This document shows, piece after piece, positions 12,001 through 18,000 of a DNA stretch of 20,854 nt (the stretch's first letter is position 1; every line of letters starts with the position of its first letter). A program made the position numbers. The stretch spans positions 1 through 20,854 of the forward strand of contig JBHJHA010000028.1 in assembly GCA_050331235.1 (NCBI GenBank). Reading direction: 5' to 3'. The DNA comes from Leptolyngbyaceae cyanobacterium (GTDB lineage Bacteria; Cyanobacteriota; Cyanobacteriia; Phormidesmidales; Phormidesmidaceae).

Positions 12001-15000
12001 TACAATCGGGCCTTGCTGTTGACCCATCAAGAGCAGTTTGCAGCAGCCTTAGTTGACTTTGATGTTGCCCTAACTGTCAATCCATTGCTGGCAGAGGCCT
12101 ACCTGCACCGTGGCAAAGTCAAGCAGCAGTTGGGCGACCACAACGGAGCTATCAAAGACTGGGAACTAGCTTTATGTAACGATCTGCGCCTTAGTGAGGC
12201 GCGTCAGCTCCTGATAGAAAATCAAGAGGCGTCTTCCACCCTCCTGCTACAGGAACAATTCCAAGACTTGCTGCCGGAAGGATTTTCCGTCGTGGCTGAG
12301 CAACAGGGCAAGCAGTTGACGCTCACGCTCCAACGTCCTGTTGGGACACCGGTCAATTACTTTAAGTTGCCCAATGCCCTCCGAGATCGCCTAGTTGAGC
12401 TGCAGCTACCAGAAGTCCGCCGTTTTCGATTAGTTGCCAAAGCAGGTGGCTCCTCCCTCTCGGAATGGGACCAGACCTATGGCATTTATGACAAAGCCCC
12501 CTGTCCGCCGTCTCGGTGGCGAGCTGCGGTAGCCACAACGGTACTGCTGTTTCCACCCTTTGGGGTTCTGGCTTTAGTTTTAGCCGCCCAGGTGAAGCCA
12601 GCTTATCGCCGGGGAGACTATCCCATTGCAGCGCGAGCTTCCCAAGCCGTGCAAAAGCTCTGTCTCAGCAGCGGTGCCATCATGGGAGTCATGCTGTTTG
12701 GGCTCGCGAGCTACGGCGTCCATACCTACGTGGAGGGAGAATATCCCAACCCTGGTGCCAAGACGGCCTTCGTGGAATCAGAGGAAGCTGATCAGAAGCT
12801 TTGAAGCTAGCAAGCTTGACGACTTCCCAATCAGCCAAGGGGGAAACAACTGGTAAAACAGGCACTGGCAGAATCAGGAGAAGTCCTTGAAGCTAGATCT
12901 GCCTCTTTTCATCCTCGGCGAGTCTCCTATTGACCGCCCCTGCGCTCAAACATTCTGATTGGGAGTCCAGATAGAAACTCCTCCTGGCAATCAAGCGATC
13001 GCCAGGAGGAGGGGAGTGTAATAAACAATTGCTGAGGAAAGGCAAAAATCGGTTTTAGATTCAAGCAGTATAAACTGCATCTTTGTCGAGGTTCTCGCGA
13101 CGCAGTTCATCAAAATCAACGGCGTCCTTGTCCAAATTCTCCTGACGTAATTCATCAAAGTCAACTGCGGCATAAGTAGCCGGAGCAATGGCGATTGTCA
13201 CTGCGGTTAAGGCGGTGAGGGCAAGTGCAAGGCGTTTCATAATTTGAACTCCTGTCGCTTGAGCGACTTAATCATCTTGATTTCTATATTGGAGCTCGTT
13301 CCTGAAGCTGCCCTGACCGCCAAATAAGCTATCCCTAATCGGTTCTTGAGAAAGCTGAGCGATCGCTGACTACAACCTGGACACACCCGTTGATATAGCA
13401 GAGGGCCGGAAGGTGGCGGGGCAAAAGTGTAGAGGCGGCTCTCGCCGCAGGTGACCATCGATTGCAACTGACTTCGGTTAGCAATCAGTTTGAACAGCAT
13501 CCGTCCGAACGGTCTAGCAAACAGAAACCGTAGGAAGCCTGAGCCGCAAATGGCACTGCGCCCAAGTCGGCCTTTGAAGACATATCCGCAGTCACCTTTG
13601 TCACGATTTCAGATGCCCGCGAAATCGGAGATTATTCGCGATCGCGATTGCGCAGGGCTTTAGCTTTCACCGCCAAATCCCGGAAAAAGTCAGTGTCGAC
13701 GATTTCTTTGACCTGCTGGTTACGCTTATTCTCATCGATTTCGACCCGTAGCTTTTGCACCTGGAGTCGGAGCCGCTGTTCTCGCTGTTGCACCTCTGCC
13801 GCCATTTTTTGAAAAATGCGGGCCAACTGGCCAATTTCATCCTGACGGGTGCTCGCCGCCTCCAACTGCTGTGGATCGAAAGCGTTAACTTCAATATCTG
13901 CAGCAGCCTGAGCAATATTCATAATCGGCCGGGCAACCAGGCGCTCCGCCAAAAAAATGGCTACGACAGCAATCCCCCCGGTAAATATGACTACTCCAGC
14001 TAGGAGTCGTCGCTTATTACGATCAATGCTGGCCGTATAAGTCGATTCAGGAATCACAGTGCCCACTGTCCAGTCTAGTTGGCCCAGCGGAGTCAGAAAA
14101 ATGTGATAGACCTCTCCAGAAACGGGCTCTGTGTGGATATAGCGCTGCCACGCCTCCAAAGAGATCGTGTCAAATTCTTGGTTTTCCAACACTTCGCTGG
14201 CGTAGCGCAATAAGGGATTACTAACCGCTGAAAATTGAGTGAGGTCAGCAGTAGCTCCGGCCGACGTTTGATCTGGCGTGACTTCAGCTTTGTCGCTGGA
14301 GGCAATCAGCTCCTGTTGAGAATTAATGATAAAAGTCTCACCAGGGCGATCGCCCTGCAATTGTTCTAAATAATCGGAAAGCTGATTGAGTTCGATCCCC
14401 ACTCCAATTACTCCCTGGAGCTCGTCGCCAGACTCGACGGCCTTCGTCATGTCGATCCCCGGTGTTCCGGTAGAGCGATAGACATACACCGTCCAAGAGC
14501 GCTGGTCGCCGCTGGAGGCAGCACCCTGATACCACGGTCTTTCTGGCGCGTAGTAGGGCGGGCTCATCTCATAGGTACGGTTCTCGATGAATGTCAAGTC
14601 TTCATTATTGAGGCGGTAGGTATTGACCGTGGCCAGCGTCGTATCTGACTCGGCGTCCCAGTCGCGATCGTGGTAGTGCAGCTCACTATCACTGATCCGC
14701 TGGGCTCCTAAAAAGTCTCCGTTAGCATCGCCATATTGCACCCAGGTAAACGCGGGCGCGGCAGCCAACAAATTAAGAAAAAAGAATTCGCGATTTTGCG
14801 CATCGGATAAATCTAACAAACCTTTGCTGAGGCTAGATTCAATTAACTGCTGGGCTGATTCGGCATTGCTAAATAAGCGTTCAACCTCCTTAGTCGTACC
14901 GACAGCAATTTCCTTATTGGTCTGGTCAACAATCGTGTTGATGTTGCGTTTAGAAATCCAAGACCAGGGAAGATATACCATGGCGGCTGTCGCTGTCACC

Positions 15001-18000
15001 GTCAACAACATCGCACTGAGTAGAGTCGCCTTGAGGCTCAGTGAGGGACGAGTTTTCGGCAGTAAGGAAGCGTTGCGGGTCATGGGGCAGAGCAATGATG
15101 GTCCGTTGAGCGAGCAAGCAACCGGCGATCGCACAGACGCTCTATGAAAATGCTACCGGGTACAAAGAATGACTGAGTTTGATTTGAGCGGGAGGAGACG
15201 ACCCTTTTCCCTTCATATCTCGTTATTAAAACTGGTGCCTACACTGCGGCTACGAATGGGATGTTGCCTAACGATTTACGCCAGCCCCTCAATGGGTAGA
15301 GATAACTTGAAGCCTGGAGTTTGTTCCATTCACTCTGTAAGAACGGCATGCAACCTTATCTTGCCCAATCATGCGCTGAGTTCATAGTTGTCATATACCA
15401 ACACTGCAAAGTCTTCATAAAGACCGGCTTCATCACCCTGACTGCGCTTTTTCTTAGCTTAAGCCTTTTTATTTAGGATTTAGGAGGCTACGGCGCTTTC
15501 TAACAGGTTCGTAGGTGGGTCACATCCTAGTTAGATTTGTTACTCACTGACCAGTTAGCGTTTTCGGCCTGTCACGCGGGGCTTCCGTCACCTTTTTCCA
15601 GCTCGGGATTAACGGGTTAGTCATGAGTCTCTATTTCTACAGAAGAGAAAATCGCGAACGCGATACCCCGCCCCTATCCACAAATTGCTCTTTCTCGAGG
15701 TTTAAGGTGAGCATTCCAAGCCGCGATCACCAGCGCTATTTGTCGAGTTGGCCGAGTTGGAATCAGGCAGATTTGCGGTGATTTCCCGAACTGCTTGGGT
15801 ATTCTAATGTCAGCCATACCGTTGAAGTCGGCTCGGCACCGTAATTTCGGCACCGCGTTCTATTAAATTAGCAATCCACTTGGGGAGTTTGAGAATGGCT
15901 GCTGCTCAGTCCAGAAAAGCAAGTAAAGCAAAAATGTTGGTCGTCGACGATGAGCCCGATAATCTAGATTTGCTCTATCGGACCTTCAGACGAGACTTTA
16001 ACGTTTTGCGTGCTGAAAGTGGTCTACAAGCCCTCGAAGTGTTATCTACTCAAGGTGAGGTAGCAGTCATCATTTCTGACCAGCGGATGCCGGAAATGAA
16101 AGGGACAGAGTTTTTAAGCAAGACTGTTCCTGAGTTCCCCGATACTGTCCGGATTATCCTGACTGGCTTTACCGACGTAGAGGACTTGGTCGATGCGATT
16201 AATGCTGGACAGGTCTATCGTTACATCACCAAACCGTGGAATCCGACCGAACTCAAGTTGGTAGTTGACCAAGCAGCCAGCACCTATGAGCTGCTTAAGC
16301 AACGGGGTGAAGCCATTAATTTACTGCAAAACCAGCAGTGGTTGGTCATGGAGATGGTTCAGATTGCCCAAGCCCATCAAAATATGGTGGCGGCCTTGCC
16401 GGCGATCGCTACGATATTGCAAAAGGTGACTGGAGCTACCGGAGTGGCTGTGCACACAGTCGCCCAGTCTGTGTTGGCAGGCGATGTCGGGACGGCTGGG
16501 GAAGTCGTGTCCAGTTTGCTCAAACAAGATCCGTTGGTAGCTGAGGCGATTACCTCATTAGAGCTGAAGTATATTGCCAACGCCAGCCGAATCGTCGACG
16601 CGGATACCAGAGCTGCATACGAAGCAGCAGGAGTACAAGCCCACGGAGTTATCCCTGTGATTTTTCGCGGCGAGGTGATTGCGGTGGTTTCTCTACAGTG
16701 GTCAACGCCGCAGGAATTCTCTCAGCACAGCCAGGACTTTATTAAGCTAGCAGCTCAGCAAGTGGCTCTGACCGTGGCCTGTCTGTAACAGAGGAAAAAT
16801 GTGCTGCTGGAGTCTGATTGGTCGGCGATCGCGATAAGGTCATAGGGAATCATCATTCTTAGCTACGATTTACCCTTGCAGTAACCTTTTTGCTTGTGTC
16901 AGCTTCGTCCCCTTCCGCCCAAGAGATTCAACAACTATTTGATCGGATTGCCCCGGTCTACGACGACTTCAATCAACAGTTGAGCTTGGGGTTACACCAG
17001 GTTTGGAAACAGATGGCCGTTGATTGGTGCGACGCTCAAACTGGCGATACTTGTTTGGATGTCTGCTGTGGCAGCGGCGATTTGGCGCTCCTGTTAGCGC
17101 ATCGCGTCGGAACCACAGGACAAGTCTATGGATTAGACTTTGCAGCGGCGCAACTGGCGATCGCCCGGCAAAAAGCGGCGGCTAAAGCCCGACTATCGGC
17201 AGTGCACTGGATCGAAGGAGATGCCTTGGCTCTCCCCTTTGAGGATAACCAGTTTGATGCCGTAACCATGGCCTATGGCTTACGCAACCTGACTAACCTT
17301 TCCCAGGGCTTATCGGAAATTCGGCGGGTGCTCAAGCCCGACGCTAAGGCGGCCATTTTAGATTTTCATCGCCCGGCTTCCCAGTGGCTGCAGCAGTTTC
17401 AACAGTGGTATTTAGCCACGGTGGTTGTCCCCGCGGCCCAGCGCTGCGGTCTGACAGAAGAATATGCCTATATTGCCCCCAGTGTTGATCGCTTTCCGGC
17501 CGGTGCTGAGCAGGTGAGTCTGGCTCGCACCGTAGGATTTACAGCGGCGACCCATTTTCCGTTGGCCGGTGGGTTAATGGGAACCCTTGTTATCACTAAA
17601 TAAACGATTTGAGGCTCCCCTTAATAAACCCCAGTGGGCGGAGAGCCTACATTCAAAAAACTGGTTGCGCATCTTCCAGGACTAAACCCGAGCGTATTCT
17701 CCGGTAAGTTTATTCAACTGGTTGACCAATAGACTGAGAAATAGCCCCACGTCGGTGACGACACCAATCGACTCTAGCGAACCGCGATCGCTGAGCTTAG
17801 TGACCACAGCTGGGTTAATGTCAACGCAGACCATCTTGACTCCGGCCGGCGTCATATTACCGACCCCAATGGAGTGCAGCATCGTGGAAAGCATCAAAAT
17901 CAAGTCGGCCCCTTCGATCAGGCGGGCATATTCCACCTGAGCCCGAATTAAGTCCATCTGGGTATCGGGGAGCGGACCATCATCGCGGATGGAGCCAGCC

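What a model noticed while it worked through the whole genome (the two positions that open the first line are those of the whole stretch)
13632..15083. A new receptor output helix coupled to a dedicated MinD/ParA-type ATPase: an undescribed signalling system
Four membrane receptors with different sensors (g01465 here and g02483 C50:56628-58220, dCache-HAMP; g02199 C41:51813-52889, haem-Cache; g03569 C82:11350-12978, CHASE2) have no kinase, cyclase or phosphatase domain and end in the same unnamed ~45-residue helical module (consensus IEID...QV.EI..TD[FY]F..L..KA..LR). A highly conserved MinD/ParA subfamily (g03809 C91:16393-17154, g01722 C34:59892-60650, P-loop-degenerate g00646 C14:14204-15019) co-occurs with this module and is encoded next to it across several phyla. 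The module is proposed to be the receptors' output and the ATPase its dedicated partner.
Evidence so far: Four genes carry the module; no Pfam or NCBIfam family fits it. A profile finds 2142 clusters at 50% identity; of 96 members scanned 53 have HAMP, 16 dCache, 15 GAF, 7 receiver domains. Loci come from Cyanobacteriota, Chloroflexota, Actinomycetota, Planctomycetota and Desulfobacterota; in 26 of these 80 loci an ATPase lies within 3.5 kb, 31 of 32 such ORFs having g03809 as best hit at 37-71% identity. Reverse test: 52 of 80 ATPase loci (43 of 56 with full flanks) hold a module-bearing ORF within 4 kb. In 41 class genomes all 19 with the ATPase have the module; 4 of 22 without it do (one hit has stops, two are weak, one genome is 73% complete). 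Complex prediction ATPase dimer + helix: weak su [...]
(Added by a program. Inside this text positions count along the whole contig: contig position 1 is position 1 of the stretch shown here. "Call 12" and the like, gene names such as g00115 and contig names such as C1 are that model's own, and its searches are not shown. The text may have been shortened before it was handed on; [...] marks where a part breaks off. The agent that wrote the report below was given it as the finding of a first reader that could run no searches.)

Follow-up and report, generated by a model that had tools for sequence, protein, structure and literature searches.

The report
Receptor tail coupled to MinD-like ATPase
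This membrane sensor has no enzyme part and ends in an unnamed helix that is inherited together with one special MinD-like ATPase, and is even fused to it in relatives, so the pair likely forms an undescribed route for passing outside signals into the bacterial cell.

Summary
Observation confirmed. Window 13632-15083(-) encodes a TM-dCache-TM-HAMP sensor ending in an unnamed ~45-residue helical tail shared by four enzyme-less receptors of this genome; 2,310 protein clusters carry it. Among 201 cyanobacterial genomes, 36 have both tail and RGGTGKS-type MinD-like ATPase, 4 only the ATPase, 1 only a weak tail hit, and 160 neither.

New here: natural fusions. In 95 of 120 long ATPase proteins the tail directly precedes the ATPase. 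There are three architectures, and a tree test rejects a single origin. One architecture is a 36-38% identical relative of this receptor.

The ATPase lacks MinD's membrane helix and is acidic, which argues against positioning. Two optional components occur almost only where the ATPase does: a winged-helix domain (here fused to TIR-WD40) and a double nucleotide cyclase.

Best reading: the tail likely docks on the ATPase and switches it, relaying signals to variable effectors. Binding and direction are untested; no complex prediction could be run. This scan noted the pair before on other DNA. It was not found in the literature searched; the closest paper is a 2026 ParA-immunity preprint whose text read here does not cover it.

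The parts
13632..15083 (-). g01465: membrane sensor, TM-dCache-TM-HAMP-helical tail, 483 aa (an in-frame GTG at 15134 would add 17 aa)
14967..15026 (-). predicted transmembrane helix 1 (residues 20-39)
   Evidence: hydropathy
14013..14966 (-). extracytoplasmic double-Cache sensor region (residues ~40-357); ligand unknown
   Evidence: dCache_1 E 2e-13
13932..14012 (-). predicted transmembrane helix 2 (residues 358-384)
   Evidence: hydropathy
13785..13943 (-). HAMP domain (residues ~381-433)
   Evidence: PF00672 E 1.7e-5, above cut-off
13638..13787 (-). unnamed output module: coiled-coil lead-in, then core residues 447-478 (nt 13650-13745) with D450, V458, I461, F467, L470, L477, R478; no histidine

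Best explanation
The gene encodes a dCache-HAMP membrane sensor whose C-terminal helix is co-inherited with, and in relatives fused to, a dedicated RGGTGKS MinD-like ATPase; the helix likely docks on that ATPase and switches its nucleotide state, which would relay the sensed signal to lineage-specific effectors. Shown: the architecture, co-occurrence, linkage, independent fusions, the MinD fold of the predicted ATPase model, and the nested distribution of a winged-helix domain and a double cyclase. Inferred step 1: ligand binding to dCache is passed through HAMP and the coiled coil to the terminal amphipathic helix. Inferred step 2: this helix binds the ATPase, probably at the groove formed by the equivalent of MinD helix 7, which is nearly invariant in this family (P161-D162-x-Q164-D165-x-x-G168-T169-A170), and changes dimerisation or ATP hydrolysis. 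Inferred step 3: one ATPase state engages an effector. In this genome the candidates are the winged-helix-TIR-WD40 protein (C26:42082-45264) and the double cyclase (C14:11767-13323), with the P-loop-degenerate g00646 as a possible pseudo-ATPase partner. Four receptors would converge on two intact ATPases.
For: Fusions: 95 of 120 listed long ATPase proteins (131 found) carry the tail upstream of the ATPase, 10 more only with a longer profile that includes the HAMP end, and 15 none; reversed-sequence control 0 of 120. Seven are dCache-HAMP-tail-ATPase proteins 36-38% identical to g01465 (six over residues 10-474/480; one partial), with the ATPase 13-19 residues after the tail. Eight are cNMP-tail-ATPase (one named Anaerolineae) and 79 are mostly receiver-tail-ATPase. 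One clade for 19 fused rows against 35 free rows is rejected, p-AU 1.1e-8. Co-occurrence: 36 both, 4 ATPase only, 1 tail only, 160 neither of 201, patchy within six families. Nine of the 36 keep both although unlinked. Copy numbers correlate, Spearman 0.83 over 39 genomes and 0.79 over the 25 outside this genus. The tail sits where outputs sit: after HAMP (about 61 of 122 scanned, hand count), CHASE2, GAF, PAS, receiver, cNMP and WD40 domains, and within 15 residues of the C-terminus in 99 of 150. Its last helix recurs as 2-5 copies in long tails of 5 of 20 tail-bearing loci, as a docking motif would. Walker A lysine K16, D38, D40, D136 and N189 are invariant in 58 ATPases. Pairs also occur outside cyanobacteria: Deinococcus, Rhizobium (genes overlap by 4 bp) and an Acetothermia MAG.
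Against: No binding or activity data exist. There is no universal effector: the winged helix is in 10 of 40 ATPase-positive genomes, the cyclase in 12 of 40 (9 from one family), and the cyclase is split in G313. Discordant cases: G149 has an intact ATPase and G187 a more divergent one, with no tail found; G337 has an intact CHASE2 receptor with a tail but no ATPase; a Streptomyces plasmid has the ATPase without a tail, chromosome not searched. The terminal KAxxLR residues are lost in 7 of 7 dCache and 78 of 79 receiver-class fusions, which fits relaxed binding once tethered but also a vestigial tail. Genome-wide co-occurrence was tested in depth only in cyanobacteria, and kin are not independent; in the phylum of G201 only 1 of 101 genomes had the ATPase.
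Confidence: 0.62

Rival explanations
1. Positioning system: the tail is a cargo tag by which the ATPase places or spaces the receptors in the cell, as PpfA and ParC do for chemoreceptor arrays.
For: Cargo positioning through a partner peptide is the family's commonest role (PMC11407121, passages). All co-occurrence and linkage data fit equally well.
Against: The ATPase is ~253 aa, its model ends with the core's last helix and has no MinD-type membrane helix, and its mean net charge is -7.5, which is poorly suited to DNA binding. It is fused to its supposed cargo in several independent lineages, which a gradient mechanism would not tolerate (inference). The receptors have no other output that positioning would serve.
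Confidence: 0.14
2. Reverse or feedback wiring: the ATPase regulates the tail-bearing proteins, which act by pairing through HAMP and coiled coil with kinases, cyclases or phosphatases that share their sensor part.
For: g02483 lies divergently from a dCache-HAMP hybrid kinase/cyclase gene. The tail also ends a hybrid kinase (P0048). The ATPase follows SpoIIE phosphatases in partner-switch clusters.
Against: Small soluble adaptors, PAS proteins and cNMP proteins also end in the tail and sit right beside the ATPase. The fusions place the ATPase at the exact output position.
Confidence: 0.12
3. Conflict or immune system: the ATPase is a switch of the kind proposed for ParA conflict branches, and triggers TIR or other effectors.
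For: A PG motif follows the DxD, as in ConB2 of Li, Burroughs and Aravind (S43-P44-G45 invariant). The second-best NCBIfam hit is the KGGVGR family, below cut-off. The winged helix is fused to TIR-WD40. Distribution is patchy.
Against: ConB2 has arginine at the second Walker A lysine; here K16 is kept and the first lysine is replaced. The ATPase is slowly evolving (50-84% identity across 58). Its neighbours are nutrient-type sensors, glutaminase and glycogen/partner-switch genes.
Confidence: 0.08
4. Hitch-hiking: the tail is a remnant of truncated kinases that travels with the ATPase in a mobile cassette.
For: 27 of 36 double-positive genomes have the genes within 8 kb. Some copies are plasmid-borne.
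Against: Nine unlinked genomes keep both. Copy numbers correlate, fusions arose repeatedly, the motif is conserved in 2,310 clusters, and there is no histidine or HisKA match.
Confidence: 0.04

Closest known systems
MinD-MinE (and archaeal MinD-like proteins, PDB 1hyq)
   Same: Best sequence and fold matches (E 5e-15; TM-score 0.80, 24% identity). A short partner helix controlling the ATPase at helix 7 is the model for step 2 (PMC6803595, passages).
   Different: Signature K11 is R; the D152 position is an invariant G168 and the N45 position an invariant G45 (mapped through the Aquifex MinD alignment; E. coli spacing partly recalled). There is no membrane helix. This genome also has a canonical KGGVGKT MinD-like gene on C33. 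The partner is a receptor tail.
FleN/FlhG-FleQ/FlrA and BcsQ-BcsR/BcsE (MinD-like ATPases used as regulators)
   Same: Regulatory use of an ATP-dependent dimer with switching partners (PMC11407121 passage). FleN is the second fold hit. The BcsQ-BcsR mechanism is recalled.
   Different: Those ATPases are not coupled to Cache/HAMP/CHASE receptors by a shared output helix. Identity is about 20%, and the NCBIfam BcsQ model scores 32 against a cut-off of 158.
PpfA-TlpT and ParC-ParP chemoreceptor positioning
   Same: A ParA-family ATPase associated with receptors.
   Different: Those receptors signal through CheA and the ATPase positions them. No MCP signalling domain was seen here.
ConB2 ParA conflict systems, including PCTM receptor-like ParA and archaeal ParA-wHTH (bioRxiv 10.64898/2026.10.19.760177)
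   Same: ParA predicted to act as a switch behind sensors; PG motif; wHTH and TIR partners; active/inactive pairs.
   Different: A different lysine is replaced. The main text has 0 occurrences of HAMP, Cache, CHASE2, glutaminase, receiver or two-component. Their receptor forms have ParA N-terminal to a single TM helix, not behind a HAMP and helix.
Receptor-coupled small GTPase modules (Streptomyces conservons, MglA/MglB; recalled)
   Same: Membrane sensor, then NTPase switch, then effector.
   Different: They use TRAFAC GTPases with roadblock partners; this system uses a ParA/MinD-family NTPase and a helical tail.

Membership tests
ParA/MinD (SIMIBI) ATPase superfamily | MinD-like fold with deviant Walker A, DxD switch I and Walker B | tested here: met
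   model pLDDT 93.9, TM-score 0.80 to 1hyq; K16, D38, D40 and D136 invariant
ParA/MinD (SIMIBI) ATPase superfamily | ATP hydrolysis and ATP-dependent dimer | not testable with these tools
   needs an assay
MinD cell-division ATPase | signature lysine in Walker A | tested here: not met
   R11 invariant in 58 sequences, which were selected on this motif
MinD cell-division ATPase | C-terminal membrane-targeting helix | tested here: not met
   253 aa; model ends with the core helix 239-252
MinD cell-division ATPase | NCBIfam cut-off | tested here: not met
   minD_arch 81 of 202 bits; minD_bact 45 of 213 bits
ConB2 / KGGVGR conflict ParA | arginine in place of the second Walker A lysine | tested here: not met
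   K16 retained; NF047398 77 of 90 bits
ConB2 / KGGVGR conflict ParA | PG motif after sensor-1 DxD | tested here: met
   D40-I-Q-S-P44-G45
ConB2 / KGGVGR conflict ParA | placement in the ConB2 branch of the ParA tree | not tested
   the preprint's sequences and supplements were not available
Cargo-positioning ParA (PpfA/ParC/McdA type) | basic nonspecific DNA-binding surface | tested here: inconclusive
   mean net charge -7.5 and few conserved basic residues; no surface map or binding test
Sensor histidine kinase / chemoreceptor | HisKA histidine plus HATPase, or MCP signalling domain | tested here: not met
   no such domain in the four receptors; no His in three tails and one far downstream in g02483
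Signalling helix (S-helix) | coiled-coil linker between a sensor and a downstream catalytic domain | tested here: inconclusive
   the module is terminal in most members but is a linker in the fusions; no S-helix profile was compared; PMC1592074 seen as search listing only

The most novel reading that the evidence does not exclude
A widespread, undescribed class of bacterial signal transduction, analogous to receptor-G protein-effector signalling. Thousands of enzyme-less sensors share one output helix that switches a dedicated ParA/MinD-family NTPase, which in turn controls plug-in effectors, among them a two-domain adenylate cyclase and proteins tagged with a family-specific winged-helix docking domain (TIR-WD40, transporter-like and Ig-like membrane proteins).
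Probability: 0.4. Interest if true: 0.9.

Novelty: categorically new. Interest (0 to 1): 0.8.

Why it matters
It would supply an output for a large set of orphan receptors (2,310 clusters at 50% identity) and add an NTPase-switch route to the known bacterial signalling modes. It would also extend ParA/MinD ATPases from positioning to transmembrane signal relay. The core claim is cheap to test: a 58-residue peptide, a soluble 253-residue ATPase and a natural one-chain fusion are all in hand.

Tried and rejected
Complex prediction of ATPase dimer + ATP/Mg + tail: no verdict, because the queue was full and no job ran.

Expression: no RNA holder was listed for the gene.

Atlas search of the tail gave only unnamed clusters with scores <=0.83, which is lead level. 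The PDB profile search of the tail gave nothing significant. Weak Pfam hits on the tail (DO-GTPase2, IFP_35_N, MCR_D) are below cut-off and were rejected as coiled-coil noise.

The window's own neighbours (TPR gene, REC-GAF gene) did not appear among the recurrent neighbours of the ATPase. The promoter scan was at chance level.

The cyclase was rejected as the universal output (12 of 40; split in G313), and so was glutaminase: this genome's glutaminase is unlinked and no closer to the linked ones than 53-61%. A plasmid tblastn with the 58-aa tail found only 1 record and is too insensitive for a reverse test. A search for long winged-helix fusions returned 38 TIR-type proteins and 2 ParA fusions of 40, biased by the first sequence.

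Seven of eight literature searches gave no paper on this system; one search gave the nearest preprint.
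Full report
The observation. 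Window 13632-15083(-) is an intact 483-aa ORF with two predicted TM segments, a dCache sensor and a HAMP domain, followed by about 50 residues to the stop. Tail profiles find only these four ORFs in the genome. No Pfam family reaches cut-off on 70 tail stretches and no solved structure matches. A 15-sequence profile finds 2,310 of 1.84 billion representatives at E<=0.001. I scanned 122 of the top 150, leaving out the 28 shortest. About 61 carry HAMP (hand count); others carry dCache, CHASE2, CHASE4, GAF, PAS, receiver, cNMP, WD40 or nSTAND1 domains, and one is a hybrid kinase ending receiver-tail. The tail ends within 15 residues of the C-terminus in 99 of 150, within 16-50 in 32, and further away in 19. 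The long tails belong largely to CHASE2 receptors, where the last helix recurs: five copies in L031 and two in four other loci, of 20 tail-bearing loci.

Co-occurrence. In 201 cyanobacterial genomes drawn evenly from the phylum, the ATPase is in 40 and the tail in 37; 36 have both and 160 neither. The pattern is patchy inside six families, but 82 negatives are one family and kin are not independent. Of the 36, 19 have the genes within 2 kb, 25 within 4 kb and 27 within 8 kb; nine, including this genome, keep both unlinked. In 61 relatives, all 39 ATPase-positive genomes have the tail, and copy numbers correlate (Spearman 0.83; 0.79 in the 25 outside this genus). Of 80 metagenome ATPase loci, 41 hold the tail, as do 22 of the 32 loci of 6 kb or more, using a longer profile that includes the HAMP end. 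My 80 best-hit genome loci held it in only 20.

Discordant genomes. G115 and G121 have divergent ATPases beside sensor genes with visibly diverged tails, and G191 has a divergent ATPase beside a weak-scoring tail. G002's weak tail hit is internal in an unrelated architecture. G149 and G187 have an ATPase with no tail found, G337 has an intact tail with no ATPase, and G317, G345 and G348 have weak or broken tail hits. Outside cyanobacteria, pairs were seen in Deinococcus, Rhizobium and an Acetothermia MAG; a Streptomyces plasmid has the ATPase alone. Only 1 of 101 genomes in the phylum of G201 had the ATPase.

Fusions, the main new evidence. A metagenome locus showed tail and ATPase in one 731-aa ORF (L223). 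A search for long ATPase proteins found 131 among 7,995 candidates and listed 120. In 95 the tail lies upstream of the ATPase, in 10 more only the longer profile detects it, and 15 lack it; reversed sequences give 0. Seven are dCache-HAMP-tail-ATPase proteins 36-38% identical to g01465, with the ATPase 13-19 residues after the tail. Eight are cNMP-tail-ATPase proteins, one named Anaerolineae. Most of the rest have HisKA-like and receiver domains in front. On an ATPase tree these groups fall apart, and one clade for 19 fused rows against 35 free rows (a subset of 97) is rejected, p-AU 1.1e-8. The hydrophobic residue ten places after the invariant Phe is kept in 45 of 46 free tails from loci and 8 of 8 cNMP fusions, but in 0 of 7 dCache and 1 of 79 receiver-class fusions. 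This fits relaxed binding once tethered, though a vestigial tail is not excluded. Among the 15 without a tail are ATPase-glutaminase, ATPase-winged-helix and ATPase-kinase fusions.

The ATPase. The model (pLDDT 93.9) has the MinD fold; best matches are archaeal MinD and FleN. It ends with the core's last helix, has no membrane helix, and is acidic. K16, D38, D40, D136 and N189 are invariant, and arginine replaces the signature lysine (the 58 sequences were selected on that motif). Mapping through the Aquifex MinD alignment puts invariant G45 at the MinD N45 position, G168 at D152, and the invariant PDxQDxxGTA stretch on helix 7. PMC6803595 (passages) names helix 7 as the MinE/MinC binding site and N45 and D152 as needed for MinE stimulation. 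The inference is a conserved partner site with a different activation mechanism.

Possible outputs. A family-specific winged-helix domain (fold confirmed; acidic body, basic C-terminal tail) occurs in 11 of 201 genomes, 10 of them ATPase-positive. It stands alone beside the ATPase, ends pseudo-ATPases, or is fused to TIR-TM-WD40, Ig-like/TM, transporter-like or other proteins. In this genome it begins the TIR-WD40 protein on C26. That full-length form is in 19 of 61 relatives, all ATPase-positive (14 are one genus); two ATPase-negative genomes have only versions matching from residue ~120 on. A two-domain class III cyclase is in 12 of 201 genomes, all double-positive, 9 of them one family. It shows the metal-binding aspartates in domain 1 and the N...R motif in domain 2 (motif assignment recalled). 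In G330 the cyclase, an intervening gene (HisIE by recall), a pseudo-ATPase-winged-helix gene and an ATPase 88% identical to g03809 are contiguous, so g00646 and g03809 are likely pieces of one split locus. Other recurrent contexts are: glutaminase directly after the ATPase (13 of 80 metagenome loci; catalytic SxSK kept in those aligned); a transporter-like membrane protein; NHLP bacteriocin export genes; and a PfpI-AGE-STAS-GlgX-STAS-anti-sigma-SpoIIE cluster (resembling the icfG cluster by recall). No effector is universal.

Literature. Eight searches gave no paper describing this pair. The nearest is bioRxiv 10.64898/2026.10.19.760177. I read its abstract, sections 12 and 36, parts 3-6 of 7 of the Results, and term passages. 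Its ConB2 branch shares the PG motif but replaces the second lysine, and the main text never mentions HAMP, Cache, CHASE2 or receiver domains; its figures and supplements were not visible and could include this clade. PMC7159879 (passages) concerns inactive MinD/ParA-like domains in other systems. PMC11407121, PMC8195603 and PMC5587647 were seen as passages. Subscription journals are not covered. This scan's earlier notes describe the same pair on other DNA; they are not independent support.

Verdict. The functional partnership of tail and ATPase is about 0.9 likely, direct binding about 0.8, and relay from receptor to ATPase to effector about 0.62. Every part resembles something known, but the wiring was not found in the literature searched. 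Interest 0.8.

Noticed in passing
G000 C26:42082-45264 (-) = L130:8083-11265: 1060-aa protein: family-specific winged helix, TIR_2, a predicted membrane segment and WD40 repeats, with no STAND NTPase; conserved across the genus.
   Followed up: partly
G000 C14:11767-13323 (+) = L006:4768-6324: Two-domain class III nucleotide cyclase with an unassigned ~85-residue N-terminal helical region, found only in ATPase-positive genomes of the sample.
   Followed up: partly
L164:6301-9084, L166:5627-8383, L167:4308-7058: The winged helix fused to a ~920-aa protein with Ig-like-looking repeats, one TM segment and a proline-rich end, beside large unannotated genes.
   Followed up: no
L059:197-2074, L185:2312, L186:3200, L096:9623-12229: Transporter-like membrane protein encoded next to the tail-ATPase pair; some copies carry the winged helix internally.
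   Followed up: partly
L125:8232-9488; L123:2381-3412: An ATPase-glutaminase deletion chimera lacking the P-loop (L125), and a glutaminase that has lost its catalytic SxSK motif beside a divergent ATPase (L123): the system seems to be decaying in these genomes.
   Followed up: partly
L046:8778-9878, L090:9536, L267:14862: An arginine 2,3-aminomutase-like radical SAM gene lies between or beside the tail receptor and ATPase in several cyanobacteria.
   Followed up: no
L001:1532-5188 (-): dCache-HAMP hybrid histidine kinase with receiver, class III cyclase and TPR domains, divergent from receptor g02483.
   Followed up: no
window 11593-12804 (+): TPR protein with a C-terminal CD225/dispanin (interferon-induced transmembrane) domain.
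   Followed up: no
window 12978-13011: Perfect 15-bp inverted repeat (terminator-like on the minus strand), followed by an unannotated stretch at 13039-13227 that looks like a small minus-strand ORF with short repeats.
   Followed up: no
P0380, P0316, P0387: ATPase fused to Ser/Thr kinase-FHA, PF13367 membrane, or PF13482 domains, without the tail.
   Followed up: no
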